Below, in pieces: positions 2,154 to 21,388 of a stretch of 32,000 nucleotides of DNA; positions within the stretch are counted from its first letter, which is position 1, and every line of letters begins with the position of its first letter. The notes under the pieces are model-generated. The model was not told where the DNA came from. It did no database searches and saw nothing but the letters and a program-made list of their open reading frames with translations. Origin of the DNA: Nostoc sp. PCC 7120 = FACHB-418 (GTDB lineage Bacteria > Cyanobacteriota > Cyanobacteriia > Cyanobacteriales > Nostocaceae); assembly GCF_000009705.1 (NCBI RefSeq), contig NC_003272.1:2430001-2462000 (forward strand). The letters are read 5' to 3'. The position numbers and the translations under genes are program-made.

Positions 2154-2942
2154 TTAGTGACTCACAACTAAACCAGCAATCTGCTCAGTAATTTCTTGAA
2201 TGATTTGCGTAATGGTATGTTGGGAGTAACGCAGACAAAACAGACCTTTACTTCCTAGCTGTACCATATCTTCCGCCAGGGGTAAAATCCCGGCTACAGG
2301 TACGTCATAGATTTGTTCTACTTGTTGTTTTAAATCAGAGAAATTCAAGGATGGTAATGCTTTGTTGAGGACTAGGAGGATTTTTGCTGCTTTCAATTTA
2401 CGAGCGACATCCACTGTTACTGCTGTTCCTTGGAAGTCTTGACTGTCTGGACGGAGGATAATTAATAATACGTTAGAAATTCCAATAGAAACTAAAGTTT
2501 CTTCATTTAAACCGGGGTGGGTATCTATTAATAAATAGTCCAATTTCAAACTACGGATCAGTTCTTGGAAACCATCATTAAGCCTGACTACATCATATCC
2601 TTCCCGGAGAATCCTGGCGATTTCTGCTGCTTTAATGCTGGAAGGAATTAGATAAAGGCTACCTTTAACTTTAGTTGTATTTCCTGGTTCGGTAACTAGT
2701 GTATCTGTAACATCATAGGCAGTATCTTGAATATCGCAGCGTTGCCATAGATAGTCATTGAGGGTAAGTTGAATTTTTTCTTCTTTAAGACCAAAGATAA
2801 TATGAATCCCTGGTGATTGGATATCTGTATCAATGATGCCTACACGCTGCCCTTGTAACGCCATAGTAGCCGCTATATTGGCAATTATGTTTGATTTGCC
2901 GGTTCCGCCACGAAATGAGTGAATAGCGATGATTTGGGACAT
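2154..2942 (-). CDS. MinD/ParA-family P-loop ATPase (deviant Walker A)
   Basis: N-terminus IIAIHSFRGGTGKSNIIANIA (Walker A RGGTGKS, nt 2892-2912), IIDTDIQSPG switch-like segment, and YLLIDTHPGLNE (Walker B-like hydrophobic-D). The 262-aa length is typical of MinD/ParA/CobQ-type ATPases. Confidence 0.8.
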   Translation of the reverse strand: MSQIIAIHSFRGGTGKSNIIANIAATMALQGQRVGIIDTDIQSPGIHIIFGLKEEKIQLTLNDYLWQRCDIQDTAYDVTDTLVTEPGNTTKVKGSLYLIPSSIKAAEIARILREGYDVVRLNDGFQELIRSLKLDYLLIDTHPGLNEETLVSIGISNVLLIILRPDSQDFQGTAVTVDVARKLKAAKILLVLNKALPSLNFSDLKQQVEQIYDVPVAGILPLAEDMVQLGSKGLFCLRYSQHTITQIIQEITEQIAGLVVSH

Positions 2943-9823: not shown

Positions 9824-10363
9824 TCATAGCCTAATTATAAAACTATCCCTGATGTGAAAGTCAGCTTCTTTACCTGGATGAACTAAAGCCCAGTAAGTTA
9901 TCTTGCCATCTTTTTGTTTGATAACTGTAGTAATTGCGACATCAATAAGTTGTTCAGGAGAAATAATTCTTTCTAAATCGACATTCAATGACATTTCCAA
10001 ACTATCTGAGTAATTTTCAATACTAAAAGGTAGTGCAGTAAAAGCTGTTTCTTCCTGCATTCCTTGGCGATATCCATGAAAGCGGTATATATTCCAATTT
10101 CGAGAGGGAGAGAGGTTGAATTCCCAATACTGTTGAGAATCTTTAATACCAATAAAGAACTCAAAACAAGTATCTTGCCATAGTTCATGTTTTCTTGTTG
10201 GTATGTCTACAGACGAAGGAATCTCAACTGGTGCTAATTCACCAACAACCTGATAATTAATAGTGAGTTGATTATTATGGCGGCTAATATTACCAGCAAT
10301 TTTGAGATCAACTAAAGATTCCTCCGAGGGGAATGGTTGTAGAGAAAATATCTGGTGACTCAT
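9824..10363 (-). CDS. DOMON-like / CBM9-like small beta-sandwich protein (tentative)
   Basis: 179-aa ORF. Its start overlaps the upstream kinase stop by 4 nt (ATGA). The motif region HELWQDTCFEFFIG...YWEFNLSPSRNWNIYRFHGYR resembles the cyanobacterial DOMON-like family, recognised from memory rather than by search. Confidence 0.5.
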   Translation of the reverse strand: MSHQIFSLQPFPSEESLVDLKIAGNISRHNNQLTINYQVVGELAPVEIPSSVDIPTRKHELWQDTCFEFFIGIKDSQQYWEFNLSPSRNWNIYRFHGYRQGMQEETAFTALPFSIENYSDSLEMSLNVDLERIISPEQLIDVAITTVIKQKDGKITYWALVHPGKEADFHIRDSFIIRL

Positions 10364-11478
10364 TTTATATCTTGAATAATTTTACGAATCTTGACTTCTT
10401 GAGATTCGATACTTTCTGTCAGTTTAAATTGCACAAGCGCCCTGGCTAAATTATGTTCTGGGTACTTGATTTTAAAGTAAACATTCCCCCCTAAGTAGTC
10501 AGCAAAGAATCTCAGTCCTAACTCAAAGGCGATGAGGCGTATAGCATCATACATATATGCGTAATCGTTATCGGTGAGAAATTCCTTTGCTACCGACAGA
10601 TAACCTTGTAAAATTCCTTGACATAAATCAGTGTCAAAAGCAACGCTTTCCCAATGTTCTGTTTCTTCCCCAGCAGGGTTACAGCCCGATCGCAAACAAT
10701 CACCAATGTCATAATGTACTAGACCGGGTTTAACCGTGTCGAGGTCGATAACGCTGACGGCTTTGTGAGTAAAAGTATCAAACATAATATTGTTAATTTT
10801 AGGATCGCCGTGCATGAGACGTAACGGCAACTCACCCGCAGCTTTAGCATTTTCTAGGATACAGGCATAACTTTGGCGATCGCTCACAAATTGCAAGCAA
10901 TAATCTAATTCTGGGGATGGTTGCGGTTTAGCTGTTGCCAAAACCTGTTCATAGTGACGCAAGTAAAGCGGCGTAATATGGAATCCTGGCAAAGTATCAG
11001 CCAGTTTTTCTGGTGATAAGTCGCTGATTAAGTTGTGAAACATCCCCAAGGCATAGCCGATTTCTTGAGCTTGTGCCAAATCTTGCATGGTGTCGAAAGA
11101 TTGCGACCCAGAAATAAAGCTAATCGCTCGCCAGAAATTCCCTTGAGTATCTGTGCAGTAATCGTGATTATCTTTGGTGGAAAGTACGCGCGGAACTTCC
11201 CAACGACGGTTCGGGGGGGCGTATTGTAGACGTTGATGAACATGATCACTAAAGATACGCATATTCTGCATGATCAGTTCAGGTTGACGAAACACTTGAG
11301 TGTTTATCCGTTGCAGAACAAAATGCTGTGCTTCTAAGGAATCAACAGTTACTAAAAAAGTATCGTTAATATTGCCACTACCAAAGGCTTGAACATTTGT
11401 TACTGTACCTGGAAACTTGAATTTCCCGGCAATGGCAGCTAAATCTACTACAGACTGCGTGCTGATAACTTCTGTCAT
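10360..11478 (-). CDS. APH/protein-kinase-fold phosphotransferase (NahK-like sugar or small-molecule kinase)
   Basis: The catalytic-loop motif LMHGDPKINNIMFD is followed by VIDLDTVKPGLVHYDIGD (the DxD metal-binding segment of the aminoglycoside/choline-kinase fold). Length is 372 aa. Confidence 0.75.
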   Translation of the reverse strand: MTEVISTQSVVDLAAIAGKFKFPGTVTNVQAFGSGNINDTFLVTVDSLEAQHFVLQRINTQVFRQPELIMQNMRIFSDHVHQRLQYAPPNRRWEVPRVLSTKDNHDYCTDTQGNFWRAISFISGSQSFDTMQDLAQAQEIGYALGMFHNLISDLSPEKLADTLPGFHITPLYLRHYEQVLATAKPQPSPELDYCLQFVSDRQSYACILENAKAAGELPLRLMHGDPKINNIMFDTFTHKAVSVIDLDTVKPGLVHYDIGDCLRSGCNPAGEETEHWESVAFDTDLCQGILQGYLSVAKEFLTDNDYAYMYDAIRLIAFELGLRFFADYLGGNVYFKIKYPEHNLARALVQFKLTESIESQEVKIRKIIQDIK

Positions 11479-11828
11479 ATTTAACTTTTACTACTCCCCA
11501 CAAAAACTGCACAATGGCAATTAGGAGACATAGTAACTCAAGTTTTACGCCGCATTATTCCTTTTAGTTGAAATACTGTGAAGATTAATGGAAACCTTAT
11601 CGTAAATTCAAGGGTTAAAGACCCCTCTCTTACAAAGTTCTGAGGGACGGAAGCCGGGATCTTGCTACAAACTTTGCGCTACATCTACACGTAGTATCAG
11701 TTGAGTTGGGGTAAAACATCCCCGACTCCAACTGTCTTTAATTTTGTTCGCCTTTGAAATATGCGTAGGGTGGGCAAAGCTAGCCAATCTTCTTGTTGAG
11801 ATAGTATTTGCGGATCAGTATTGTCAGG

Positions 11829-11865
11829 TCAATACAGTTGTTATAGTCAGCTATGACTGTATTGA
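11829..11865. other. 10-bp-arm inverted repeat inside a roughly 960-bp gene-free region
   Basis: TCAATACAGT-(17 nt)-ACTGTATTGA, read directly. No adjacent U-tract. Confidence 0.3.
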
Positions 11866-12436
11866 ATGTGATTGCTATACTTGCGATCGCTTCATCAATA
11901 ATTCTGATTCATTCCATAGATAGATTTAGCAAAACCCATCGGCAGAAAGTTTTTACACTTAGAAGCTTAGTATAAAATTTTTCTTAAGATATTTGCTTGA
12001 TGGAGGCGATCGCCTAATCTAAGTCTTGACTCGTCTCATCATGAATTGTGCTGATTATTGGACTATATAATAATCATTAACGATTTTGGAATGAGTAGAT
12101 TTACCACCAATAAAATATGCAAAATAAAAAATGTTAATTTCTTGCTAAACATTGATGATAATGGATCACAGGATGTATGCTTCATGCCATAGTACATTAT
12201 TAAGCCAAAATTTATAATCTAAATTTTATTTTTTATATTGTTATGATTACGTAGACATAAGGCATTTAATATAGGAAATATTTCTAAGAAAATTTTAAGC
12301 ATATTTATAAATATTATTTAAACTTACGCAAATCCACTGAACACTATAGAGACGTGACATTCCTAAATTGTCTAGTTAATATATAACTTGATATATCACT
12401 TATTACATTCCTCCAGTTAATGGGTTAGGAAGTCGA

Positions 12437-12679
12437 ATGTCTCGCCAAAAGAAAATAATATTTGCACAACCAAAAATCGGTCAATTCATTCAAGAAATTA
12501 GGCTGGTTATGGGTTTAACCCAAGAAGAGTTTGCGGTAATTCTTGGTGTAACTTTTCCTACTGTAAATCGTTGGGAAAATGGGCATACTAAACCTTCAAA
12601 ACTCGCTATTCAACAAATAGAAGCTTTGGTAGATAAGCTTGGTGAAGATGGTCAAAATATTTTGGCTAAATATCACTGA
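12437..12679 (+). CDS. XRE-family helix-turn-helix transcriptional regulator (80 aa)
   Basis: IQEIRLVMGLTQEEFAVILGVTFPTVNRWENGHTKPS is a classic Cro/C1-type HTH_3 pattern. GGAAG sits 6-10 nt upstream of the ATG. Confidence 0.85.
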   Translation: MSRQKKIIFAQPKIGQFIQEIRLVMGLTQEEFAVILGVTFPTVNRWENGHTKPSKLAIQQIEALVDKLGEDGQNILAKYH

Positions 12680-12744
12680 AAATAGATTCATTACCCATTA
12701 ATTTCCAGAAAAAGTCATAAATTTATGACTGGAGACATCTATCC

Positions 12745-14571
12745 ATGAATTTTAATTACTTGAGATATTTTTTGAAATTTACTTCAATACCCAGTATTTG
12801 TCTCTTGTTGATATTATCAATTTCTCATTTTTCTAGGGTATTGGCTCAAAATCCCAAAGGTGGAATTGACTGGATTGTAGTAGTAGATACTTCTGCTTCC
12901 ATGCGCGGTGTTGGCGGGACAAGAAATATCTTTACTCAAGTCAAAAATTCTATTAATGAATTTGTTAATACTGCCAGAGTAGGGGATACAGTTACTATTT
13001 ATAATTTCGATAGTGATGTAACTTTGCAAGCTCAAGAAATTCCTATTGCCAGCAATCCAGACCGGGGTAAACTCAAACAAATAATTAATAACCTCAAAGC
13101 TGATGGTGTGCGTACTCACACAGGGAAAGCAGTACAACAAGCGCTCTCTACTTCTGCAAAATTGAATCAACGTCCTAATACTGCGGATAGGACTGTGAGT
13201 ATAGTTTTCCTAACAGATGGATTGGAAGATGTCCAAGGTATTCCTAATCCTGTGCCGATTCCTCAAAGTACGCAACTTTTACGGGAACAAGAATGTAAAC
13301 CTTATGTATTTTTCGTATCTTTAGGATTGAAAGAACACGAAAAACAATTAAATGAATTTGCCAGTAATCCCGCACTTTGTGGCAAAGGGCGCGTTTTGCG
13401 TGACCCTGGAGGAGTGCAATTAAACAAGTTGGCTCAAAATATTAGGCCAAGACTCATTAAACCCCAGATTGATGTTAGTTTATCTACTGTTGATTTGCCG
13501 CCTGTATTGCCAGGTACAACTACAAAAGCACTAAATATTAATAGCATCAGTAATGTCAATGCTAAAGTGAGGTTGCAACTAAAAGACATAGAAAAAAGTG
13601 GTATTCGCCTAGTTTTGCCTAGCACAATTGACTTAGCAGCTAATCAACAAAAAGTTATTCCTATAAGTTTACAAATTCCAGCAAATGCACAGGGAGGTAA
13701 TCGAAAATTGCGGTTTTTGTTAACAGCAACTGATAAAGCTATTGCCCCACAAGCTATTGATTTATCTTTAACGATTAAACCACAATTGTCAATGCAACCA
13801 AATAGCCTAAACTTCGATTCTGTAGAAGCAGGAAAAACTAGCCAAAAGCAAACTTTAGTAATTCGCAGCAATATATCTGGAACAGCTAGTTTACAACTGC
13901 AAGGCAAGACTAAAGATGTTTCTTTAAAGGAGCCTTCAACACCTGTATCTTTGGCAGTCGGAGAAACCAAAATCCCTATACAGCTTGAAGTTGCTGATAG
14001 TAGTTTTGATGGTAAGCGTACATTCAATGTAGTTGTTACTCCAGATCACCCCCTGACGAATCCCCTCAGTGCCGAAGTTCAGGTACGGATCTTAATGCCA
14101 CTGGGACGGAAAATCGTTATTTGGTTGCTATTGATATTACTGCTTTTCTTAATTACCTTAACCATAATTTGCTTGATTCAACGTAAAACTCCTTGGGAAT
14201 TAGCCCAAGATATTGGCACTCGCAACCATTTAGAAGGGGAACTAGAACTATTAGAACCAGTCCCCATATCACCAGAAGAACAATATATTAGCCTTACTCA
14301 CCAGCACAAGCAAAAAGTCAACTTGAGTGCATTAGTTCCAGCGATCGCCTCTACAAATAGTGATGCAGAATTAGTCATCAATTGGCAGTCTGGTAAAAAA
14401 TATGTATATGTACGGAGTTTAAGCGGTATTACTTTTGTCAATAATGAAAAGATAACTACATATCAACTTTACGATGAAGACACAATCCAGGTTGATAACG
14501 TAAAGCTGCGATTTAACTGGATTGGTAATCAACGGCCCTATGAACAAAACAGTGGGCTGACAGATTTTTAA
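12745..14571 (+). CDS. Transmembrane protein: signal peptide - vWA domain with complete MIDAS - beta-rich (Ig-like) repeats - TM helix - C-terminal FHA-like domain
   Basis: Signal-like N-terminus ICLLLILSISHFSRVLA/QNP. MIDAS DTSAS at residues 48-52 (nt 12886-12900), with downstream THTG and FLTDGLED. Two similar beta-rich segments span about residues 240-450. The TM helix is IVIWLLLILLLFLITLTIICLI (nt ~14113-14178). The C-terminal FHA-like strands are YVYVRSLSGITFVNNEKITTYQLYDEDTIQVDNVKLRF. Confidence 0.8.
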   Translation: MNFNYLRYFLKFTSIPSICLLLILSISHFSRVLAQNPKGGIDWIVVVDTSASMRGVGGTRNIFTQVKNSINEFVNTARVGDTVTIYNFDSDVTLQAQEIPIASNPDRGKLKQIINNLKADGVRTHTGKAVQQALSTSAKLNQRPNTADRTVSIVFLTDGLEDVQGIPNPVPIPQSTQLLREQECKPYVFFVSLGLKEHEKQLNEFASNPALCGKGRVLRDPGGVQLNKLAQNIRPRLIKPQIDVSLSTVDLPPVLPGTTTKALNINSISNVNAKVRLQLKDIEKSGIRLVLPSTIDLAANQQKVIPISLQIPANAQGGNRKLRFLLTATDKAIAPQAIDLSLTIKPQLSMQPNSLNFDSVEAGKTSQKQTLVIRSNISGTASLQLQGKTKDVSLKEPSTPVSLAVGETKIPIQLEVADSSFDGKRTFNVVVTPDHPLTNPLSAEVQVRILMPLGRKIVIWLLLILLLFLITLTIICLIQRKTPWELAQDIGTRNHLEGELELLEPVPISPEEQYISLTHQHKQKVNLSALVPAIASTNSDAELVINWQSGKKYVYVRSLSGITFVNNEKITTYQLYDEDTIQVDNVKLRFNWIGNQRPYEQNSGLTDF

Positions 14572-14591: not shown

Positions 14592-17324
14592 ATGTCACGT
14601 CCCACAGTTGTTTTTCGCCCTACTGTTGTCATCGGTTTAGGAGGTACGGGTTATGAAGTTGCACTCAAGTTGAAAAAGCGCTTCATCGATGTTTATGGCG
14701 ACGTACCAGACATTATTCGCTTTCTCTCTATTGATACCACTGAAAATATTCAAAGCCGGGAAAAATCACCTGATGGTACTAAGGTTGTTTTAGAACCTAA
14801 TGAACTTTATGCGATTTCCGTCGCTAATCCATTACCTTTAACGCGGAACGATCATATTGATGAATGGTGGCCGAGAAATATTCCCACATCCAGCTTGATT
14901 AGTGGTGCAGGTCAGATTCGCGCCCGTGGACGGTTGGCTTTCTTTGCAAAAGTAGGCGATATTAACGGTTTAATTAGTCAGGCGATTAATACTGTCCGCG
15001 AAATTCGCAGTAGTAAACAAGCATTCTTAGACAAATTTCAAGTATCTAATCGTGATGGTGTGGAAGTTTTTATTGTTGGTAGTTTAGCTGGAGGAACGGG
15101 TAGCGGTACTTTTCTAGATGTGGCATTTTTAGCCAGACAATATCTTAATAGCTTTTCCAATGTTACGGGATTATTTGTATTACCTAGAGTATTTGCCAAT
15201 CTTCCCCAAACTCATCTAGTAAAATCCAATGCTTATGGCGCTCTCAAAGAAATTGAACACTTTTGGAATTTGTCACCATCTAATCCTTTAGAGATTGATT
15301 ATGGTATTACCAAAGTCAAAGCCGATCGCCCTCCTTTCGATGCAGTATTTTTGATGGATGGTGTGAACAAAAATGGTACTGTAGTTAGCCGTCCTAACGA
15401 CTTACAAAATTTAATCGCCGATGGTTTGTATATTCAAATTGGCTCTCAAATTGGTCTAGATGCTGCCAACGTTGCTGATAATATTCGTGCTTATTTGGCA
15501 GTTGGAGAGAAAGTCCGAGGACGAAATATAAATTATTGTAGTTTTGGCTTTGCTACTTTGGCTTTGCCAGTACAGCAGTACGAGCGAATGAAACTAGAAG
15601 ACACGCAGAACTTATTGAAAAACGAGTTGATGGCTGCTACTGCAAATATTGATATAGCCAGCGAAATTGAGCGTTTTTTACAAGATTGCAAATTAGCAGA
15701 AGCTACTACCGTATTAGATAGTTTGACAGAGAGCGATCGCGGTGGACAAGTCAAACCAGAATTCAGAATCGGGGAAATGAAATATGACCGCGCATCTTTA
15801 CCGACTATCAAAGAACTTTACAAGCGACAGTTGGATCAAATGGAGCAAAGGACGGCTAAAGATTTGGCGATGAATTTTTATCGCTTAGAACAGACTGCAA
15901 CTACTACTATTGAGGCTTGGTTGGAGCGTAGTCTGAATCGTCCCAATGGTCTAGCTTCTACTCTAAAATTCGTGAGTAGTCTTTATCAAAAGATAGATGA
16001 GTTACAGCAGAATGTACAGCGCAAATCTAAAGAAGCTCAATCTAATTTTTCCACTTTAAAATTAGAACCCCAAGAAGAAAAAATTAAAGAAGCCGCCGAA
16101 GCTTGGTTTCCCAATAAGAATACTATTCAAGCAGCTTGTCAGAGATATAAAGAACGGGCTGACCAAAAGTGGCGGATATACTTACACTGGAAACGCTGTG
16201 ATAAGGCGGCGGAACTCTGCGGTATGCTGCGGACTAGAATAGAAAAAATTCAGGAACAATGTCAACGCATACACAGCAACCTAGATAAAGTTTATCGAGA
16301 TGTAGAACAAAGTTACGCCGAAGTTAGCCGCCAAGGAAATTCTGATAATCCGTTTATCCATACTATTCAACGCGTTGATTTAGAATCGAAACGCCCCAAA
16401 GTTAGTGGTGAAGACTTTATCCGTTGGTATCGAGAAAAGTCTCAAAGTTTAACTAATTGGTCTGAGAAAAAGGCAGAAGATGTGAAAGATGAAATCTTAG
16501 CCTTTATGGATGAAACTTATCGTCCACTCACTAGTATGAATATTGAGCAAGTATTAGCAGATAGTAACCCAGAAGATGCGGGAGAGGATTTACAGCAACT
16601 TGGTAAACTTGCAGTTCCTTTGTGGCAATATCAAGATTCCGAAATTCCTGCTAAACAGCAACACGTCATTACAGAATTTTATTACTACGGAGTCGAAAGT
16701 AACAACACTATTTTTAGTAATCCCCCGCTTTCTAATCGTCTACCTAAAGGCAAAGGTAATGTTTCTTTTGTACCAACAGGTGAACCTCATAAACTCACAC
16801 TGTTTCGTATAGAAATAGGTGTACCTTTGTTTACTCTGAATGGGATGAAAGATATGGAGATGGCTTATCTAGATCCAGATAAGGTCTTCAAACATTTGCA
16901 CCGTAATTGGACGAATTTAGCAAATTTAATTCCTCCAGAAGATGACGGCGGAGCGCTGCGTTGGTTTGCTTTAGCTTTAGCACCTAATCCATATTCATTA
17001 ATTGTCAATGAGAGGAAGCAATATTTTGTCCATACAGACCAAGCAAGAAAATTAGAAGGTGGAACTTTGTTGTTGGGAGATGACCGCAAATCAGCATTTA
17101 AAGCTTTCAAAAACAATGTTTCTTTAGTTAAAGAAATTGCTCAGAAAGTCGATAAAATTACCCACCAAGACAAAGAAAAAGCGAGATTTTCTCTAGAGAG
17201 CTATATTAAGCAAGTTAATGAGCTTTTAAAGAATAATAGAGTCGGTCTGCCAATCAAAGAACAGGTGGAAATGGAAATTCAAGAAATTGATGCCTATTTA
17301 GAAGATTTGGATGTGATTAGCTAA
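14592..17324 (+). CDS. Large tubulin/FtsZ-superfamily GTPase ('tubulin-like', Tubulin_2-type) with a helical C-terminal extension
   Basis: T1-like loop VVIGLGGTGYEV (G15-G20, nt 14634-14651). Tubulin signature T4 loop IVGSLAGGTGSGTFLDVA (GGTGSG = residues 167-172, nt 15090-15107). A GAGG-containing RBS lies 9 nt upstream, and the gene starts 20 bp after the vWA gene. At 910 aa it is far longer than FtsZ or TubZ. Confidence 0.8.
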   Translation: MSRPTVVFRPTVVIGLGGTGYEVALKLKKRFIDVYGDVPDIIRFLSIDTTENIQSREKSPDGTKVVLEPNELYAISVANPLPLTRNDHIDEWWPRNIPTSSLISGAGQIRARGRLAFFAKVGDINGLISQAINTVREIRSSKQAFLDKFQVSNRDGVEVFIVGSLAGGTGSGTFLDVAFLARQYLNSFSNVTGLFVLPRVFANLPQTHLVKSNAYGALKEIEHFWNLSPSNPLEIDYGITKVKADRPPFDAVFLMDGVNKNGTVVSRPNDLQNLIADGLYIQIGSQIGLDAANVADNIRAYLAVGEKVRGRNINYCSFGFATLALPVQQYERMKLEDTQNLLKNELMAATANIDIASEIERFLQDCKLAEATTVLDSLTESDRGGQVKPEFRIGEMKYDRASLPTIKELYKRQLDQMEQRTAKDLAMNFYRLEQTATTTIEAWLERSLNRPNGLASTLKFVSSLYQKIDELQQNVQRKSKEAQSNFSTLKLEPQEEKIKEAAEAWFPNKNTIQAACQRYKERADQKWRIYLHWKRCDKAAELCGMLRTRIEKIQEQCQRIHSNLDKVYRDVEQSYAEVSRQGNSDNPFIHTIQRVDLESKRPKVSGEDFIRWYREKSQSLTNWSEKKAEDVKDEILAFMDETYRPLTSMNIEQVLADSNPEDAGEDLQQLGKLAVPLWQYQDSEIPAKQQHVITEFYYYGVESNNTIFSNPPLSNRLPKGKGNVSFVPTGEPHKLTLFRIEIGVPLFTLNGMKDMEMAYLDPDKVFKHLHRNWTNLANLIPPEDDGGALRWFALALAPNPYSLIVNERKQYFVHTDQARKLEGGTLLLGDDRKSAFKAFKNNVSLVKEIAQKVDKITHQDKEKARFSLESYIKQVNELLKNNRVGLPIKEQVEMEIQEIDAYLEDLDVIS

Positions 17325-17410
17325 TACATAACGGTGTAAATCAAGCAAATATTTTCACTGTTACTCAGCCAAAACCAGCATTTAAAATTCCGCGTAGTGG
17401 TACTAGCCTC

Positions 17411-20400
17411 ATGCCAAAACCAACTATCTTACTTGCACTCGATCCTCACAGTACGGCTTTATGTGCAGCTATCAAGCGGCAACTCCCACAACTTCCTAAC
17501 CCCCAAAGTCGCTTAATTCAGGCTTACACTCTGACTTGGGACGGTCAAACTTTTGGGTTTAGTAATGAGTTAGATTCTTTTGCCGATGCGAGTTTTGACC
17601 TCACACTCACCAACCCTAGACAAACTGCTGTCTCCCAACTGCGTCACCAGTTTAAAGAAGGGGCTAAAGACCTGCAAACTACCTTAATTGATTTAATTAA
17701 ATCAGTTAACCAATCTCCAGAAGCGATCGCCGCGAAAAATGCTGGAGTTGATATCAGTTCTTGGTATAGAATCTATATCATGTTCTCAGCCAACGACCAT
17801 CGGGCGCGAGAACTGGTATTTGAACTATCCCGCTTGATTCATTGGCTATTTAATGTCTACTTTGCTGACGTTCCCCATAGTTTGGAAGCTTTATTACTCT
17901 TACCAGGATTATTTGCTCAAGCCAGAACTGAGGATTATAGTGCGGCTTATCAACTCCTGAAGGAATTAGACGACAAAATGACTAAAGGAGTTGTCATTAG
18001 GGGTACTCAAAAAAGACCTCCTTTTGATAATTGTTGGCTGATTGACGAACGAATTGGGGAACTAGGAGTCAATTTAGATAGTTATGCTGATGCTTTTGCA
18101 GGTTTCTTGACTGTCGAACCGGAGACAGGTGGATTGTTGATTGGGGCGCATACAATCCGGGGAAAACTTCCTGCTTACAGTACCTTTGGCTATGGGGAGT
18201 TATTTTTTCCTGCACAGACAGTTGTAGATCGTTTGAGTACAGCGTTAGCAGCCGATATTATCACCCAGGAGTTTCTCCCCTCAGCAAAACTCACTCCTGA
18301 AGCAAATCGCCAATTACTATTAGATGCTAAAGAATTTGTCCTCAGCGAAGATTATAACGATGCTTTGCAGCAATTAGAACGAGACAACGGTAAACCAGTT
18401 TGGCAAGATTTCAGCCCCCGTCTTGATATTCGTCCCGGCCAGACACAAGAATATGGGATGGAATTGCAATGTGCTTATAAGCAATTTGAAAATAAAGAAC
18501 TGATTTCATCTAAGCGCACTCTAGAAATTTGTGGTAAACAAGCACAAGCCACCTTAACCAAACTCTTAGACCAGAAGATTAATCAATATGCGGATGCTGC
18601 AACTAGTGGCTTACATGAAGCTGTTAGATTATCTACTGTTTTGAATAATCCTTATTTGGAATTGCAAACAGAGTCTATTAGCGATCACCCAGAAAATCTG
18701 ATTACAGAACTACGCGCCGCCGAATCATTTTTAGATACTCGGTTGCAGATCACAATCAACAAAGAAAATAGTCAAAAGCTACTCAATCAATTCTTCACAC
18801 TCAAATCCCAAAGACAACAATTACAAGACACGATAGCTGAGACTAATTCGGAAGCACTCACCCAAGAGTTACAGAAAATTCAAGAACAATTAAAAGTAGC
18901 TGTTTCCGACTATCACCAAGCTATAAATGCAGAACTCGAACAAACTAGACAAACCCGCTTATTAGCAATTGAAGATGCTCGTTCCAAGGCACAAACAGCG
19001 ATTAGTCAGGCACAAAAACAGTTAAATTATTTAGAAAATCAACATGAAATAGCTACAGATCAATTAAATGAATTGATAGCAGAAGAAAACCGTTTTCGTT
19101 CTCTATATCTCATAGTTTTTCCTGCTGTCGTTGCTATTGCCTTAATTGGGATTTTGCTGCTCACCGGGCTTTTCAGCCAATCAACCCTTTGGATATTATT
19201 ACAACAGATAGGGGTCAACTTATTGAATTACATACTTTGGGGTTTAGTTAGTGTACTCAGTTACTTAGGTATAGTTTGGCTGAAGTACAGTACCAGTATC
19301 CGCGATCGCATTCAAAAAGTTCAGAAGCAAATCAAACGCCTAGAAAGTAGTTTAAAAGCTACTGGTGTGGAATTACGCCGTAATTATAATGACCAATTAA
19401 AGTTAGAATATGACCTCTATGCTCAAAATATCCGCGTTGAAGTAGCGAATCATTTGATTAAAACATCTAAACAAAAGACTGAGATTTTACGGCAAAGTTT
19501 ATCTAATTTTTCTCAAATATATGATATTTTAATTGCTCAACATGATAAAGCCTCGACAAATTATTCGGAAACTAGATTAGCTATTTTAACAAACTCAGAT
19601 ATCGATATTTATTATCATCAAAATATTCTCAAAACTCTACCCATTAATAAATTTACCCAAGAAGAAGTTAGTCGTTCTCAATCATGGCAAATTTCGTCCA
19701 CAGAATTTCAGAACAAACTGGATTTGTTTGCCAGAAAGCAGTTTGAACATTTAAGTAAGTTATCCATTGGAGACGTTTTAAAATCAGATTTGATCGCAGA
19801 AAATACAGCTAGTATTAGATTAAATCAACTTTATAACAGTGCGAAGCTCTTGTTGCGTCTTCAAGATAGTGATGCTCACTTAAACCCAACTTCTCAACCA
19901 GAAATTACACTTTGGGTAGGAGCAAAAGATAAAGAAGAAATACTCCGACTTTATAGTCGCTTTAGCCGTTCTTTAACTCCCTATGTCGCGGAAGACGAAA
20001 GTAGTTTATGCGTTTTGGTACGTTCTTTAGGTTTTCCGATTTACTTTCTCAGTCAAATAGAGTTTTATCGAGACTGTTATGAACGTACTCAGAAAGAACA
20101 AGAGGAAAATATTCCCGACTTAATTCCTGAAGAAATTAGTTCTAGTCGAGAATTAATTTGGGCTTATGATACTCTGTTGCTAGCGATCGCTCTGGAATTA
20201 TTGTCTCAAGACACTCACGGTAACTATCAATTCAATGGTCAATTACTTGGTCAAGAACGAGAAAAAATTGCCTCGGCTCTTGCAAATGAGTTCAGCCATC
20301 AAGAATTATATGGAGAACTCAAAGAACGTATAGAGGCGTTTGAACAAGATTTAATTTACCAGCAATTAGAAAAATCTGAAAAATCTGTCCCAGGTTTAAC

Positions 20401-20458
20401 GCATTACGAACGCAAGCGTTTAAATCATCTATTGTCAAAGTATAGTCCTCTAAACTAG
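17411..20458 (+). CDS. Degenerate (GTP-loop-less) paralog of the upstream tubulin-like protein, with a long coiled coil and a two-helix membrane hairpin
   Basis: It aligns by eye with the 910-aa protein along its whole length. The pairs are ILLALDPHSTALC vs VVIGLGGTGYEVA, IYIMFSANDHRARELVFELSRL vs VFIVGSLAGGTGSGTFLDVAFL, RPPFDNCWLIDE vs RPPFDAVFLMDG, YSTFGYGELFFPAQ vs YCSFGFATLALPVQ, and LCVLVRSLGFPIYFL vs LTLFRIEIGVPLFTL. TM helices are LYLIVFPAVVAIALIGILLLTGLF and NYILWGLVSVLSYLGIVWL (nt ~19103-19285), flanked by Q/E/L-rich heptad-like sequence. Confidence 0.75.
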   Translation: MPKPTILLALDPHSTALCAAIKRQLPQLPNPQSRLIQAYTLTWDGQTFGFSNELDSFADASFDLTLTNPRQTAVSQLRHQFKEGAKDLQTTLIDLIKSVNQSPEAIAAKNAGVDISSWYRIYIMFSANDHRARELVFELSRLIHWLFNVYFADVPHSLEALLLLPGLFAQARTEDYSAAYQLLKELDDKMTKGVVIRGTQKRPPFDNCWLIDERIGELGVNLDSYADAFAGFLTVEPETGGLLIGAHTIRGKLPAYSTFGYGELFFPAQTVVDRLSTALAADIITQEFLPSAKLTPEANRQLLLDAKEFVLSEDYNDALQQLERDNGKPVWQDFSPRLDIRPGQTQEYGMELQCAYKQFENKELISSKRTLEICGKQAQATLTKLLDQKINQYADAATSGLHEAVRLSTVLNNPYLELQTESISDHPENLITELRAAESFLDTRLQITINKENSQKLLNQFFTLKSQRQQLQDTIAETNSEALTQELQKIQEQLKVAVSDYHQAINAELEQTRQTRLLAIEDARSKAQTAISQAQKQLNYLENQHEIATDQLNELIAEENRFRSLYLIVFPAVVAIALIGILLLTGLFSQSTLWILLQQIGVNLLNYILWGLVSVLSYLGIVWLKYSTSIRDRIQKVQKQIKRLESSLKATGVELRRNYNDQLKLEYDLYAQNIRVEVANHLIKTSKQKTEILRQSLSNFSQIYDILIAQHDKASTNYSETRLAILTNSDIDIYYHQNILKTLPINKFTQEEVSRSQSWQISSTEFQNKLDLFARKQFEHLSKLSIGDVLKSDLIAENTASIRLNQLYNSAKLLLRLQDSDAHLNPTSQPEITLWVGAKDKEEILRLYSRFSRSLTPYVAEDESSLCVLVRSLGFPIYFLSQIEFYRDCYERTQKEQEENIPDLIPEEISSSRELIWAYDTLLLAIALELLSQDTHGNYQFNGQLLGQEREKIASALANEFSHQELYGELKERIEAFEQDLIYQQLEKSEKSVPGLTHYERKRLNHLLSKYSPLN

Positions 20459-20561: not shown

Positions 20562-20598
20562 TTGTAGAGAGGTTTAACTTCTCTACAATGGTTTTGTT
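20562..20598 (+). terminator. Candidate rho-independent terminator of the 12437-20458 cluster
   Basis: TTGTAGAGA-(9 nt)-TCTCTACAA is a 9-bp stem followed by TGGTTTTGTT. It lies about 100 bp after the stop at 20458. Confidence 0.5.
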
Positions 20599-20626: not shown

Positions 20627-21388
20627 ATGAAGACCAACACATCAAGTTACAACTCTTGGGTAATTTGTCCCAAGCCAAATCCTGTAGCGGCTTTGCGTTT
20701 ATTTTGCTTTCCTTATGCGGGTGGTAGTTCTTTTATCTTTCGCACTTGGTCAAATTATCTACCTGCATCTGTAGAGGTGTGTGCTATTGAACTTCCTGGG
20801 CGAGGAAGACAAATGCAGTTAGCGCCTTTTCACAAGATGGAACCGCTTGTGGATGCGATCGCCTCCGCTATCTACCCATATTTAGACAAGCCATTCGCCT
20901 TCCTGGGACATAGCATGGGTGGCTTGGTCAGCTTTGAAGTGGCGCGTTTCCTGCACAAACAGTATGATATTCACCCGGTTCACTTGTTTATATCCGGTCG
21001 TCGCCCCCCACACATTCCCGATTTACATCCACCTATTCATAATCTACCCGAACCAGCTTTTATAGAAGAACTACGCCATCTCAACGGTACACCATCGACA
21101 GTATTAGAAAATGCAGAACTAATGCAGCTATTTTTGCCGATTTTACGAGCTGATTTTGCAGTTTTAGAAACTTATATTTATACTCCTGAATTACCTTTAG
21201 AATGTCCCCTTACAGTTTTTGGCGGATTACAAGATTCGGAAGTTAGTTGTGATGAGTTGCAAGCATGGCGAGAGCAGACAAAGGCTGACTTTAACTTACA
21301 TATATTCCCCGGCGACCACTTTTTTCTGCACTCGGCTCAATCTCTTGTACTCGAACAATTGGCTAAATATTTGTCTATGAATGTTTAA
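20627..21388 (+). CDS. Type II (external, editing) thioesterase of the NRPS/PKS-associated family
   Basis: LFCFPYAGGSSFIFRTW, nucleophile elbow GHSMGG and C-terminal FPGDHFFL are hallmarks of the GrsT/TEII alpha/beta-hydrolase family. Length is 253 aa. Confidence 0.85.
   Translation: MKTNTSSYNSWVICPKPNPVAALRLFCFPYAGGSSFIFRTWSNYLPASVEVCAIELPGRGRQMQLAPFHKMEPLVDAIASAIYPYLDKPFAFLGHSMGGLVSFEVARFLHKQYDIHPVHLFISGRRPPHIPDLHPPIHNLPEPAFIEELRHLNGTPSTVLENAELMQLFLPILRADFAVLETYIYTPELPLECPLTVFGGLQDSEVSCDELQAWREQTKADFNLHIFPGDHFFLHSAQSLVLEQLAKYLSMNV

What the first reader, a model, noticed from the sequence alone, without database searches (positions are those of the whole stretch)
14592..20458. Active/inactive tubulin-like paralog pair, suggesting an obligate heteromer
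Conserved blocks shared by eye between the two adjacent large proteins run in the same order across their full lengths:
- RPPFD is identical in both (KADRPPFDAVFLMDG vs TQKRPPFDNCWLIDE).
- YCSFGFATLALPVQ aligns with YSTFGYGELFFPAQ.
- LFVLPRVFAN aligns with LLLLPGLFAQ.
- AVPLWQYQDSE aligns with AKLLLRLQDSD.
- KLTLFRIEIGVPLFTL aligns with SLCVLVRSLGFPIYFL.

At the two nucleotide-binding loops the second protein has lost every glycine:
- GLGGTGYEV (nt 14634-14651) becomes ALDPHSTAL.
- SLAGGTGSGT (nt 15090-15107) becomes SANDHRAREL (nt 17786-17806).

A tandem duplication followed by loss of GTP binding in one copy recalls catalytic/regulatory pairs in other cytoskeletal GTPases. I infer that the second protein is a non-hydrolysing partner, cap or membrane adaptor for filaments of the first.
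Basis: seen in the sequence. Interest (0 to 1): 0.8.

Follow-up and report, generated by a model that had tools for sequence, protein, structure and literature searches.

The report
Membrane-anchored dead tubulin paralog pair
Two neighbouring genes of Nostoc sp. PCC 7120 (alr2043 and alr2044) are ancient copies of one bacterial tubulin-like gene: the first keeps its GTP-binding loops, the second has lost them and gained a membrane anchor, and the two always travel together with a membrane sensor gene, which points to a two-protein machine whose function has never been tested.

Summary
The window is Nostoc/Anabaena sp. PCC 7120, genes alr2042, alr2043 and alr2044.

- **alr2043** (14592-17324) is a known FtsZ-like-1 (FtsZl1, Pfam Tubulin_2) protein. 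Its T1 (GLGGTG), T3 (GAGQ) and T4 (GGTGSG) loops are intact, and its predicted fold matches FtsZ, CetZ and tubulin.
- **alr2044** (17411-20458) was listed in 2010 only as a "coiled-coil" neighbour. It is a full-length, colinear paralog. Profile-profile E-values are 1.4e-9 for the N-terminal domains and 2.7e-8 for the C-terminal halves. Its family profile retrieves intact FtsZl1 proteins at E as low as 2e-21 in a library of 1.84 billion proteins.
- **Loss of GTP binding is ancient.** Every full-length relative inspected lacks T4 and lacks a GAG-type T3 motif. This holds in Nostocales, Pseudanabaena, Acidobacteriota and metagenomes.
- **The gene is under purifying selection** (dN/dS about 0.15).
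- **New here:** all 67 near-full-length homologs of the dead copy carry a central hydrophobic hairpin, against 1 of 113 homologs of the live copy.
- **The dead copy's best-conserved part** is an acidic-Pro-acidic loop where a T7 loop would lie.
- **The only genes conserved around it** are vWA, live copy and dead copy, in that order.

Heteromer formation and biological function remain inferred. I rate it a new variant of a known system, of moderate to high interest.

The parts
12437..12679 (+). asr2041, an 80-aa Xre-type HTH regulator upstream of the module. It is an optional neighbour, not part of the conserved core.
   Evidence: Pfam HTH_3 E=2.5e-11. A homolog lies upstream of the vWA gene in only 7 of the 80 genome loci, all of them among the loci 76-89% identical to alr2043.
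12745..14571 (+). alr2042, a membrane sensor-like protein. It has an N-terminal hydrophobic leader, a vWA domain with an intact MIDAS motif (VDTSAS, 12883-12900), an Ig-like middle region, one TM helix (14107-14178) and a cytoplasmic FHA-like tail (about 14197-14568).
   Evidence: Pfam VWA_2 E=3.7e-15 and VWA E=1e-13. Hydropathy segments at aa 6-34 and 447-483. The tail's family profile hits only FHA domains in the PDB (6cah E=0.0023, 3po8 E=0.013), and Pfam FHA gives E=0.012, below its cut-off. A vWA gene lies directly upstream of the live copy wherever the contig extends far enough.
14592..17324 (+). alr2043, the live FtsZ-like-1 (FtsZl1 / Pfam Tubulin_2) GTPase. It has a GTPase domain, a long helical stalk, an alpha/beta C-terminal domain and no TM segment.
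   Evidence: Pfam Tubulin_2 E=1.9e-63. Listed as FtsZl1 by Makarova & Koonin 2010. AlphaFold2 mean pLDDT 85.8. The top 50 Foldseek PDB hits are all CetZ, FtsZ, tubulin or TubZ, E=4.4e-7 to 8e-5, probability 1.00. No hydrophobic segment.
14634..14651 (+). T1 loop GLGGTG of alr2043.
   Evidence: Translation. G17, G18 and G20 are invariant in 61 homologs.
14904..14933 (+). T3-like loop GAGQIRARGR of alr2043. alr2044 and its relatives lack this segment.
   Evidence: G105, A106, G107, Q108, R110, R112, G113 and R114 are invariant. The alignment shows a gap across this region in every second-copy protein.
15081..15110 (+). T4 signature SLAGGTGSGT of alr2043.
   Evidence: Translation. Invariant G167, G168, T169, G170 and G172. 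Pfam Tubulin/FtsZ GTPase match at aa 151-199.
15444..15482 (+). Candidate T7 loop and start of H8 of alr2043 (SQIGLDAANVADN), with invariant N293, D296 and N297.
   Evidence: The AlphaFold2 secondary structure gives H7 at 268-284, a loop at 285-293 and H8 at 294-304. Assigning it as T7 is an inference from the FtsZ/tubulin N-x-D-x-x-D/E pattern, which is background knowledge.
17411..20458 (+). alr2044, the nucleotide-loop-less, membrane-anchored paralog of alr2043.
   Evidence: hhalign E=1.4e-9 (N-terminal domains) and E=2.7e-8 (C-terminal halves). The profile search reaches intact FtsZl1 proteins at E=2e-21. A 67%-identical ortholog, P0017, hits Pfam Tubulin_2 at E=3.7e-5, and more conservative relatives pass the gathering score. 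alr2044 itself has no Pfam hit.
17435..17461 (+). Degenerate T1 site ALDPHSTAL.
   Evidence: Translation. Orthologs from Nostocales, Pseudanabaena and Acidobacteriota read ALD/AVD + x at this position.
17786..17815 (+). Degenerate T4 site SANDHRAREL.
   Evidence: Aligned opposite GSLAGGTGSGT by hhalign. No ortholog has a G[GAS]TG[SAT]G motif. More conservative relatives read S-x-x-D-P-V-G-S here.
18116..18124 (+). EPE loop directly after the H7-equivalent helix. It is a candidate T7-equivalent acidic loop.
   Evidence: Acidic-Pro-acidic in all 20 diverse orthologs, and residues 216-300 are the best-conserved stretch of the protein. My column-by-column reading of the hhalign consensus lines puts E238 opposite D296 of alr2043. 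The catalytic role is inferred.
19091..19276 (+). Central hydrophobic hairpin (two TM-like segments, aa 561-622), lying at about the position of alr2043's first stalk turn.
   Evidence: Hydropathy scan. Present in 67/67 near-full-length homologs, against 1/113 homologs of alr2043. hhalign aligns p4 597-... with p3 440-..., around the loop NRPNGL.
19199..20356 (+). C-terminal half of alr2044 (aa 597-982), homologous to aa 447-866 of alr2043.
   Evidence: hhalign Prob 95.2%, E=2.7e-8, 354 aligned columns.
20562..20598 (+). Terminator-like hairpin (12-bp stem followed by a T-run) about 100 nt after the alr2044 stop. It is the likely 3' end of the operon.
   Evidence: The only terminator-like sites on the + strand between 12745 and 20458 are two overlapping weak 5-bp stems at 16946, inside alr2043. 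The total number of such sites (5) is no higher than in shuffled sequence (mean 6.6).

Best explanation
alr2042, alr2043 and alr2044 form a self-contained three-gene module.

- **alr2043** is a soluble FtsZ-like-1 GTPase.
- **alr2044** is its ancient paralog. It has lost the nucleotide pocket: T1 is degenerate, the T3 segment is missing and T4 is replaced. It keeps the shared stalk and C-terminal domain, and it carries a membrane-inserted hairpin at about the position of the first stalk turn.
- **alr2042** is a single-pass membrane protein with an outward-facing vWA (MIDAS) domain and a cytoplasmic FHA-like tail.

The most likely mechanism is that alr2044 is a non-hydrolysing, membrane-embedded partner. 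It recruits alr2043, or oligomers of it, to the inner face of the membrane, pairing through the homologous stalk and C-terminal domains and/or a tubulin-type longitudinal contact. Its conserved acidic loop (E236-P-E238, at the T7-equivalent position) may insert into the GTP site of alr2043. In that case it would complete the active site from one side only and act as a cap, because its own nucleotide face is dead. alr2042 probably couples this assembly to an extracytoplasmic cue.

**Shown:** paralogy, family-wide loss of the loops, purifying selection, the membrane hairpin, strict three-gene linkage, and the FtsZ/tubulin fold of alr2043.

**Inferred:** physical pairing, the role of the acidic loop, polymerisation, signal coupling, and the cellular output (membrane remodelling or a conflict/defence response).
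For: **Paralogy**
- hhalign E=1.4e-9 (N-terminal domains) and E=2.7e-8 (C-terminal halves).
- The alr2044-family profile retrieves GLGGTG+GGTGSG Tubulin_2 proteins at E=2e-21 to 3.5e-8 from 1.84e9 proteins.
- Second-gene relatives P0241 and P0246 pass Pfam's Tubulin_2 gathering score.

**Loss is ancient and constrained**
- No T4 or T3 motif in any full-length relative inspected.
- dN/dS 0.14-0.17 for alr2044, 0.07-0.10 for alr2043.

**Linkage**
- vWA, live copy and dead copy lie in this order in the genome loci with enough DNA, spanning Nostocales, Pseudanabaena and Acidobacteriota. One Acidobacteriota locus (L079) needs a caveat, given under evidence against.
- The same order is seen in metagenomic trios with more conservative second copies.
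- These three are the only genes conserved in the flanks.

**Complementary features**
- Hydrophobic hairpin in 67/67 homologs of the dead copy, 1/113 homologs of the live copy, and 0/8 intact FtsZl1 hits.
- Residues 216-300, with an invariant acidic-Pro-acidic loop, are the most conserved part of alr2044.
- My reading of the hhalign consensus lines puts E238 opposite the invariant D296 of alr2043.

**Fold of alr2043**
- pLDDT 85.8 and Foldseek E=4e-7 to CetZ, FtsZ and tubulin.

**Operon**
- Gaps of 20 and 86 nt, no strong internal terminator-like site, and a strong hairpin after alr2044.

**vWA protein**
- The vWA/FtsZl1 association was already published.
- The cytoplasmic tail resembles FHA domains.
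Against: - There is no direct evidence of physical interaction. No multimer prediction was available.
- The AlphaFold2 model of the alr2044 N-terminal part is confident only for residues 1-210 (mean pLDDT 61). Its Foldseek hits lean towards tubulin but are not significant (best E=0.04).
- The T7 assignment in both proteins rests on secondary structure and motif pattern, not on a structural superposition. The hhalign confidence line is blank in that segment. A profile-versus-E. coli FtsZ comparison aligned only the T1 region.
- Makarova & Koonin could not identify T6-H7-T7 in FtsZl1 and doubted canonical filament formation.
- In three genomes the dead copy has an internal deletion while the live copy's ORF is intact (L016, L018, L057). 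The live copy can therefore persist for some time without an intact partner.
- In one Acidobacteriota locus (L079) the neighbour clustering kept an opposite-strand ORF at the position where the profile survey found a dead-copy ORF of 925 aa. I read this as the filter preferring a longer antisense ORF in a high-GC genome, but did not check it.
- No member of the family has been studied experimentally.
Confidence: 0.6

Rival explanations
1. alr2044 does not pair with alr2043 through a tubulin-like or coiled-coil contact. It is an independent membrane effector, for example a membrane-perturbing or pore-forming two-TM protein, that merely shares ancestry with alr2043. It would be switched on downstream of alr2043 and alr2042, as an effector is in a conflict or abortive-infection system.
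For: - Module-like behaviour: only the three genes are conserved and the flanks vary.
- The phyletic spread is patchy, with 40-47% identity between cyanobacterial and acidobacterial live copies.
- One metagenomic trio lies next to an MmeI-type restriction-modification gene and an IS66 transposase.
- Some genomes show occasional internal deletions or stops.
- The TM region of an acidobacterial ortholog has a weak match to a holin family (E=9.6e-5, below the cut-off).
- vWA plus tubulin genes have been proposed as parts of conflict systems.
Against: - None of the three proteins matches PADLOC.
- The window itself is not a defence island: its neighbours are glycosyltransferase, kinase-like, thioesterase and transporter genes.
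- The holin match is sub-threshold and is absent for alr2044 itself.
- The TM hairpin is the least conserved part of the protein, and the dead GTPase-like domain's H7-to-S7 face is the most conserved. That fits a protein-protein interface better than a free-standing pore.
- This rival does not exclude heteromer formation.
Confidence: 0.2
2. alr2044 still binds a nucleotide or another ligand in a remodelled pocket. The pair would then be two active subunits, as in alpha/beta-tubulin or BtubA/B, not a live/dead pair.
For: - More conservative second-copy relatives keep a T1-like G-L-G-x-x-G loop and a conserved D-P-V-G-S motif at the T4 position. These could in principle contact a phosphate.
- The Rossmann-like core of alr2044 (residues 1-210) is predicted with pLDDT of about 85.
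Against: - In alr2044 and all its closer orthologs, T1 reads ALDPHS, no GAG-type T3 motif is present, and the T4 site is not conserved even within Nostocales (SANDHRAR, SASNQFAR, SAKEQISR).
- No G[GAS]TG[SAT]G motif occurs in any of the second-copy proteins.
Confidence: 0.07
3. The resemblance is not homology. It would be compositional similarity of two long coiled-coil proteins plus a few chance motifs. Alternatively, alr2044 is a decaying, functionless duplicate.
For: - The single-pair BLASTP is only marginal (E=9e-4 over 93 columns with 38% gaps).
- alr2044 has no Pfam hit.
- Makarova & Koonin annotated it only as 'coiled-coil'.
Against: - The significant alignments lie in the globular N-terminal and C-terminal domains and are colinear.
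- The library-wide profile search finds intact Tubulin_2 proteins at E=2e-21.
- Pfam Tubulin_2 scores above threshold in relatives.
- dN/dS is about 0.15 and full-length ORFs are kept across three distant lineages.
Confidence: 0.02

Closest known systems
FtsZ-like 1 (FtsZl1 / Pfam PF13809 Tubulin_2) with its vWA-gene operon (Makarova & Koonin 2010, Biol Direct 5:33)
   Same: alr2043 is one of the proteins in that paper. The 2010 neighbourhood table lists alr2042 (vWA), alr2043 (FtsZl1) and alr2044 with exactly these lengths. [quoted passage not shown] The vWA association and the membrane-related prediction also match.
   Different: The paper lists alr2044 only as 'same as Ava_4731 coiled-coil', not as a family member. 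It does not describe a live/dead pair, the loss of the T1, T3 and T4 loops, or the membrane hairpin of the second copy. Other FtsZl1 operons, such as the Ava_1848 type, carry B7/OmpA genes and no paralog.
alpha/beta-tubulin and BtubA/BtubB heterodimers
   Same: These are two adjacent or co-expressed paralogs of the tubulin/FtsZ fold that work as a heterotypic pair. One subunit's nucleotide is not turned over, and a T7-loop acid from one partner completes the other's active site (background knowledge). BtubA and tubulins appear among the non-significant fold hits of alr2044 and the significant hits of alr2043.
   Different: Both tubulin partners bind GTP, whereas alr2044 has no recognisable nucleotide loops at all. 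The pair here has long stalks, a different C-terminal domain and a TM hairpin in one partner. Heterodimer formation is not shown.
Firmicute GAP1-N2 GTPase-centric systems with two tubulin-domain genes and vWA genes (Kaur, Burroughs, Iyer & Aravind 2020, eLife 9:e52696)
   Same: Two genes for tubulin-domain proteins fused to coiled coils lie next to vWA-domain membrane proteins. The authors interpret them as regulated assembly of cytoskeleton-like complexes at the membrane.
   Different: Those systems are defined by GAP1 and double-ZnR GTPase components, and none is conserved next to this module. They were reported from firmicutes and actinobacteria, not cyanobacteria or Acidobacteriota. The passages of that paper I read do not say that one tubulin copy is inactive or membrane-embedded.
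Membrane tethers of FtsZ (FtsA, ZipA, SepF)
   Same: The proposed role is the same: holding a soluble tubulin-like GTPase at the cytoplasmic face of the membrane (background knowledge).
   Different: Those tethers are unrelated in sequence to FtsZ and bind its C-terminal peptide. Here the proposed tether is a paralog of the GTPase itself.
Bacterial dynamin-like proteins and mitofusins (globular GTPase domain, helical stalk, membrane paddle or TM hairpin at the stalk tip; often encoded as tandem pairs)
   Same: The overall layout of alr2044 matches: an N-terminal globular domain, long antiparallel helices, a hydrophobic hairpin at about the position of a stalk turn, a return helix and a C-terminal domain. 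This is an analogy for how it may engage membranes.
   Different: The GTPase fold is unrelated (tubulin/FtsZ versus the dynamin P-loop). There is no sequence or fold match. The globular domain of alr2044 is predicted to be nucleotide-free.

Membership tests
FtsZ/tubulin superfamily (alr2043) | Glycine-rich T1 loop and T4 signature GGGTG(S/T)G | tested here: met
   GLGGTG at aa 15-20 and GGTGSG at aa 167-172, invariant in 61 homologs.
FtsZ/tubulin superfamily (alr2043) | Tubulin/FtsZ GTPase fold | tested here: met
   AlphaFold2 pLDDT 85.8. The 50 listed Foldseek PDB hits are all CetZ, FtsZ, tubulin or TubZ (E=4.4e-7 to 8e-5, probability 1.00, target-normalised TM-score 0.36-0.51), out of 115 hits at E<=1e-3.
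FtsZ/tubulin superfamily (alr2043) | T7 loop with a catalytic acidic residue that activates GTP hydrolysis in the neighbouring subunit | tested here: inconclusive
   A helix-loop-helix at aa 268-304 with invariant N293, D296 and N297 fits the pattern. No residue-level structural alignment was available, and Makarova & Koonin could not identify T7.
FtsZ/tubulin superfamily (alr2043) | GTP-dependent polymerisation into protofilaments | not testable with these tools
   Needs biochemistry or electron microscopy.
FtsZl1 / Pfam Tubulin_2 (alr2043) | Match to PF13809; N-terminal FtsZ-like domain, coiled coil and C-terminal domain; vWA gene in the operon | tested here: met
   PF13809 E=1.9e-63. Long helices at aa 402-580 and a C-terminal domain. 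The vWA gene lies 20 nt upstream. Listed as FtsZl1 in the 2010 paper.
FtsZl1 / Pfam Tubulin_2 (alr2044) | Sequence homology to the family | tested here: met
   hhalign E=1.4e-9 and 2.7e-8. The profile search reaches intact members at E=2e-21. Ortholog P0017 gives PF13809 E=3.7e-5, and relatives P0241 and P0246 score above the gathering score. alr2044 itself is below Pfam's detection.
FtsZl1 / Pfam Tubulin_2 (alr2044) | GTP-binding T1, T3 and T4 loops | tested here: not met
   The T1 site reads ALDPHS, the T3 segment is absent and the T4 site reads SANDHRAREL, with the same loss in all orthologs inspected. It is therefore a divergent, catalytically dead branch and not a working member.
FtsZl1 / Pfam Tubulin_2 (alr2044) | Tubulin/FtsZ fold of the N-terminal domain | tested here: inconclusive
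   The AlphaFold2 core (residues 1-210) is a confident beta-alpha-beta domain, but mean pLDDT is 61. Foldseek's top hits are mostly tubulins, CetZ2 and BtubA, with E>=0.04.
alpha/beta-tubulin-type obligate heterodimer | Both partners bind GTP and form a stable head-to-tail dimer | tested here: not met
   alr2044 lacks all nucleotide loops. Dimer formation is not testable here. The comparison with tubulin is an analogy only.
GAP1-N2 / double-ZnR GTPase conflict systems (Kaur et al. 2020) | Linked GAP1 and TRAFAC GTPase genes | tested here: not met
   Only the vWA, live-copy and dead-copy genes are conserved in the flanks of 20 distant loci. No such genes lie next to the module in the window.
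Known anti-phage defence systems (PADLOC-DB 2.0) | Match of any component to a defence-system model | tested here: not met
   No match for any of the three proteins at E<=0.01.
FHA domain (cytoplasmic tail of alr2042) | Match to FHA profiles and the phosphothreonine-binding residues | tested here: inconclusive
   Pfam FHA E=0.012, 16.4 bits against a cut-off of 20.7. The family profile's only PDB hits are FHA domains (E=0.0023 to 0.067). The canonical binding residues were not verified.

The most novel reading that the evidence does not exclude
The module is a previously unrecognised kind of bacterial cytoskeletal device: a heterotypic tubulin-like pair in which a membrane-embedded, nucleotide-free pseudo-tubulin (alr2044) nucleates or caps GTP-dependent assemblies of its soluble paralog (alr2043). 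alr2044 would supply the catalytic T7 acid in trans, so that the GTPase fires only at the membrane. The whole device would be gated from outside the cell by the vWA/FHA-like transmembrane protein alr2042. This would be the first tubulin-family analogue of a GTPase/pseudo-GTPase pair, and a minimal transmembrane signal-to-polymer switch used for membrane remodelling or for an abortive-infection-type response.
Probability: 0.2. Interest if true: 0.85.

Novelty: new variant of a known kind. Interest (0 to 1): 0.58.

Why it matters
FtsZl1 is the most divergent branch of the tubulin/FtsZ superfamily. It is widespread, and no experimental study of it turned up in the searched literature. Three findings turn a vague "FtsZ-like protein with a vWA neighbour" into a defined system with testable roles:
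- the third gene of one of its operons is a dead, membrane-anchored copy of the GTPase;
- this live/dead/vWA trio is conserved from Nostocales to Acidobacteriota;
- the dead copy's best-conserved surface is the one that would face the live copy's GTP site.

If confirmed, it would be a bacterial example of a theme known from eukaryotic tubulins, where paralog pairs differ in nucleotide handling, and from pseudo-enzymes that regulate their active relatives. Nostoc sp. PCC 7120 is genetically tractable (background knowledge), so the experiments are feasible.

Tried and rejected
- **Single-pair BLASTP** was only marginal, so family profiles were needed.
- **Third homolog search.** As a result the AlphaFold2 model of alr2044 had a shallow alignment and is poor beyond residue 210, and its fold search is not significant.
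- **PDB sequence searches** with both family profiles found nothing relevant.
- **PADLOC** found nothing.
- **Pfam on sub-regions.** Scans of the TM hairpin and of both C-terminal domains found nothing above noise. The weak holin-family hit in one acidobacterial ortholog was not reproduced for alr2044, so I do not rely on it.
- **Mapping T7 against E. coli FtsZ.** It aligned only the T1 region (probability 1.7%).
- **Literature searches** for the gene names, for FtsZl1 or Tubulin_2 with defence terms, and for inactive FtsZ paralogs found no study of these genes.
- **Rejected: the thioesterase (20627-21388) or the Xre regulator as part of the conserved module.** The thioesterase is in no other locus, and the regulator is upstream in only 7 of the 80 genome loci.

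Full report
**Identity of the region**

The ORF scan gives four co-directional genes:
- 12437-12679, 80 aa;
- 12745-14571, 608 aa;
- 14592-17324, 910 aa;
- 17411-20458, 1015 aa.

Their lengths and spacing match the neighbourhood table of Makarova & Koonin 2010 for Nostoc sp. PCC 7120, with a constant offset of 2,430,000. There the genes are asr2041 (Xre regulator), alr2042 (vWA protein), alr2043 ("FtsZl1") and alr2044 ("same as Ava_4731", itself annotated "coiled-coil"). The first protein of the finding is therefore a published member of the FtsZ-like-1 family. The second was noticed only as an uncharacterised neighbour. No paper in the searchable library mentions these genes by name.

**Checking the observation**

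alr2043 matches Pfam Tubulin_2 (PF13809) at E=1.9e-63. alr2044 matches nothing in Pfam. Direct BLASTP of the two proteins finds only the RPPFD...YSTFGY block, at E=9e-4. That is suggestive but weak.

With family alignments (A1 for alr2044, A2 for alr2043), profile-profile comparison is significant twice, in the same order along both proteins:
- the N-terminal domains: alr2043 152-329 against alr2044 108-270, Prob 96.4%, E=1.4e-9;
- the C-terminal halves: 447-866 against 597-982, Prob 95.2%, E=2.7e-8.

They place GSLAGGTGSGT opposite FSANDHRAREL.

An independent and stronger test used the alr2044-family profile against one representative of each 50%-identity cluster of about 15 billion proteins. 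Only 193 proteins scored E<=1e-3. Among them were bona fide FtsZl1 proteins carrying both GLGGTG and GGTGSG: P0271 at E=2.1e-21, P0287 at 2.1e-16, P0295 at 1.2e-14, P0300, P0309, P0318, P0322 and P0328.

Pfam also sees the relationship in less eroded relatives. P0241 scores 37.1 bits and P0246 29.2 bits, both above the 27-bit gathering score. The 67%-identical Fischerella ortholog P0017 scores E=3.7e-5.

Paralogy is established. The coordinates of the loops were verified by translation.

**Is the degeneration strain-specific?**

No. Seventeen cyanobacterial orthologs and twenty more diverse ones, including Pseudanabaena and Acidobacteriota sequences taken from genome loci, all read K-P-T-x-x-x-A-L-D at the T1 position. 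All have an unconserved, glycine-poor T4 position.

In a joint alignment of live and dead copies, all second-copy proteins show a gap of about 40-50 residues where the live copies have the W-W-P...G-A-G-Q-x-R-A-R-G-R segment. That segment is invariant in alr2043 homologs and resembles the FtsZ T3 loop.

The profile search also revealed a graded series. More conservative second copies of about 1020-1080 aa, such as P0241, P0246, P0251 and P0260, keep a T1-like G-L-G-x-x-G. They have D-P-V-G-S instead of G-G-T-G-S-G and share the same T3 gap. The erosion therefore began with T3 and T4 and was completed at T1 in the clade that includes alr2044.

alr2044 is not decaying. Against five close relatives its dN/dS is 0.14-0.17, compared with 0.07-0.10 for alr2043 and 0.18-0.20 for alr2042.

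**Is the dead copy always present?**

A scan of one genome per species (185,579 species) with the alr2043 family returned 80 loci. HMM searches of their ORFs show the order vWA, live copy, dead copy on one strand wherever the contig extends far enough. This holds in Nostocales, in Pseudanabaena (L068, L070, L071) and in Acidobacteriota (Pyrinomonadaceae, Blastocatellia, Thermoanaerobaculia; L059, L063-L067, L069, L072-L075, L077-L080). For L079 the neighbour clustering kept an opposite-strand ORF in place of the dead-copy ORF that one search reports. I read this as an antisense-ORF artefact of the filter but did not check it.

The more conservative second copies sit in the same arrangement in metagenomic contigs: vWA, then Tubulin_2 of about 897 aa, then a second protein of about 1050 aa.

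Clustering all neighbouring ORFs of 20 distant loci shows that these three are the only conserved genes. The Xre gene is upstream in 7 other loci, and the thioesterase downstream of alr2044 is in none.

Pairwise scores show that every dead copy is closer to other dead copies than to any live copy, and the reverse. The dead copies diverge much faster: for example 356 bits between the live copies of the window and L082, against 44-54 bits between their dead copies. This fits one ancient duplication.

There are exceptions. In three genomes the dead copy carries a large internal deletion, and in two of them the vWA gene is also truncated, while the live copy's ORF is intact (L016, L018, L057). The pairing is also clade-specific. 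The other FtsZl1 type of related cyanobacteria (Ava_1848 of Anabaena variabilis) has B7 and OmpA-like neighbours and no paralog.

**What distinguishes the two copies besides the loops?**

A hydropathy scan finds two adjacent TM-like segments in the middle of alr2044 (aa 561-622) and none in alr2043. The contrast holds across the families:
- 67 of 67 near-full-length homologs of alr2044 have such a segment;
- 1 of 113 homologs of alr2043 has one;
- 0 of 8 intact FtsZl1 proteins hit by the profile have one;
- every T4-less relative examined has one.

hhalign begins the C-terminal alignment with alr2044's second hydrophobic segment opposite alr2043 residues 440-470. In the AlphaFold2 model of alr2043 this region contains the turn (N449-R-P-N-G453) between two long helices. 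The anchor therefore sits at about the position of the first stalk turn. Two TM passes would leave both globular domains on the same side of the membrane, presumably the cytoplasmic side.

**Structure**

The full-length model of alr2043 is good: mean pLDDT 85.8, pTM 0.69. Its Foldseek search of the PDB returns only CetZ, FtsZ, tubulin, gamma-tubulin and TubZ in the 50 listed hits, with E=4.4e-7 to 8e-5 and probability 1.00.

After strand S6 (aa 251-255) the model has a helix (268-284), a loop (285-293, SQIGLDAAN) and a second helix (294-304). S285, Q286, G288, N293, D296 and N297 are invariant in 61 homologs. This is the place and the pattern of the H7-T7-H8 element of FtsZ and tubulin, whose N-x-D-x-x-D/E acid activates hydrolysis in the adjacent subunit (background knowledge). 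The 2010 paper could not identify this element. I treat the assignment as probable, not shown.

The model of alr2044 residues 1-450 is confident only for residues 1-210, which form a beta-alpha-beta core (pLDDT about 85). Mean pLDDT is 61. Its PDB hits are mostly tubulins, CetZ2 and BtubA, but the best E-value is 0.04. This is consistent with the tubulin fold and is not evidence on its own.

**The conserved face of the dead domain**

Across 20 orthologs from cyanobacteria and Acidobacteriota, the best-conserved stretch of alr2044 is residues 216-300, not the core of the former GTPase domain and not the TM hairpin. Mean majority fractions are 0.60 for residues 216-300, 0.47 for the core and 0.36 for the hairpin.

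That stretch contains the H7-equivalent helix (Y-A-D-A-F-A-G-F-L), an acidic-Pro-acidic loop (E236-P-E238) present in all 20 sequences, and R-G-K-x-P-A-Y-S-x-F-G-Y-G-E-L-x-F-P. My column-by-column reading of the hhalign consensus lines puts E238 opposite D296 of alr2043. In tubulin terms, alr2044 has lost the nucleotide-bearing face but kept the T7-bearing face.

**The third component**

alr2042 has these parts:
- an N-terminal hydrophobic leader;
- a vWA domain with an intact MIDAS motif D-T-S-A-S;
- a weakly Ig-like middle region;
- one strong TM helix at aa 455-478;
- a tail of about 125 aa, conserved as far as Acidobacteriota.

The tail's family profile hits only FHA domains in the PDB: Rv1747 at E=0.0023 and Rv0020c at 0.013-0.067. 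Pfam FHA gives E=0.012, below its cut-off. The layout suggests an outside-in sensor or adaptor.

**Operon**

The gaps between the three genes are 20 and 86 nt. The only terminator-like sites on the + strand between them are two overlapping weak 5-bp stems inside alr2043. A 12-bp hairpin with a T-run follows alr2044 at 20562-20598. The scan is a simple consensus match, and the number of sites found does not exceed that in shuffled sequence.

**Most likely mechanism**

- *Shown:* a three-gene module encodes a soluble FtsZ/tubulin-fold GTPase, its nucleotide-loop-less paralog with a hydrophobic hairpin, and a vWA membrane protein. The three are strictly linked and are under purifying selection.
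- *Inferred, confidence about 0.6:* the dead copy is a non-hydrolysing membrane partner of the live copy.
- *Inferred, confidence about 0.25:* it binds the GTP-bearing face of alr2043 through its conserved T7-side face. It would complete the active site with E238 and act as a one-sided cap or nucleator at the membrane.
- *Alternative, not exclusive:* the two pair through the homologous stalks and C-terminal domains.

The cellular output is unknown. The published proposals are membrane remodelling and, for other tubulin-vWA neighbourhoods, biological conflict systems.

Module-like mobility, patchy distribution, occasional decay and one restriction-modification/IS neighbour are compatible with the conflict proposal. 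Against it, PADLOC has no match and the Nostoc locus is not in a defence island.

**Comparison with what is known, and novelty**

The FtsZl1 family and its vWA association are known. Two tubulin-domain genes side by side were noted in firmicute GAP1-N2 systems. Those systems are defined by GAP1 and GTPase genes that are absent here.

I found no description of the following in the searchable literature:
- the third gene of the alr2042-alr2044-type operon as an FtsZl1 paralog;
- a conserved live/dead division of labour;
- the membrane hairpin of the dead copy.

This makes it a new variant of a known kind. The resemblance to alpha/beta-tubulin is functional analogy only, because the defining feature, that both partners bind GTP, is not met.

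**Verdict**

Its interpretation is supported for paralogy, designed loss of GTP binding and a membrane-adaptor role. Heteromer formation and capping remain unproven. Interest 0.58.

Noticed in passing
L016:12737-14587; L018:8925-13210; L057:8698-14450: In three genomes the dead copy has a large internal deletion: L016 lacks roughly aa 567-931, L018 aa 22-884 and L057 (Calothrix sp. PCC 7716, a complete genome) aa 237-711. In L018 and L057 the vWA gene has also lost its N-terminal part. The live copy's ORF stays intact in all three. This suggests the module occasionally decays starting from the membrane components.
   Followed up: partly
L010, L025, L049, L053, L054 (live-copy gene at about 10001-12730): The live copy's ORF is interrupted in several loci that are otherwise 76-82% identical to the window: by a stop in the same reading frame in L010, L025 and L053, and by a frame change in L049 and L054. 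In L010 the dead copy is frame-shifted as well. I could not tell whether these are assembly errors in metagenome-assembled genomes or real pseudogenes.
   Followed up: partly
L082:1-3552 and 13575-14156 (also L083): A metagenomic trio with a more conservative second copy (P0246) lies directly downstream of a 1397-aa MmeI/Eco57I-type restriction-modification gene and near an IS66-family transposase fragment. This is a defence-island-like setting, seen in one contig family only.
   Followed up: no
P0196 aa 599-707 (acidobacterial ortholog of alr2044): The TM-hairpin region gives a sub-threshold Pfam match to Phage_holin_3_6 (Holin-X; E=9.6e-5, 22.8 bits against a cut-off of 28.4). The corresponding region of alr2044 itself gives no such match, so the hit may be compositional.
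   Followed up: partly
window 14197-14568: The cytoplasmic tail of the vWA protein alr2042 looks like a divergent FHA domain: Pfam FHA E=0.012, and its family profile's only PDB hits are mycobacterial FHA domains. This hints at a phosphothreonine or Ser/Thr-kinase input, and kinases are frequent neighbours of other FtsZl1 genes according to the 2010 paper.
   Followed up: partly
window 20562-20598: A strong terminator-like hairpin (12-bp stem, loop of 3, then TGGTTTTGTT) lies between alr2044 and the unrelated thioesterase gene (20627-21388).
   Followed up: no
P0129 aa 807-860 and many other non-Nostocales homologs of alr2043: The C-terminal region of many homologs that are 40-47% identical to alr2043 carries a Pfam match to RecA_C (PF21096; E=3.2e-7 in P0129, 30.8 bits against a cut-off of 27). 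alr2043 itself does not show it. The meaning is unknown.
   Followed up: no
window 974-2146 and 2154-2942 (minus strand): A DUF7005 protein (E=7e-173) lies next to a ParA/MinD-like P-loop ATPase, about 10 kb upstream on the opposite strand. Nothing links them to the module, and they were not examined further.
   Followed up: no
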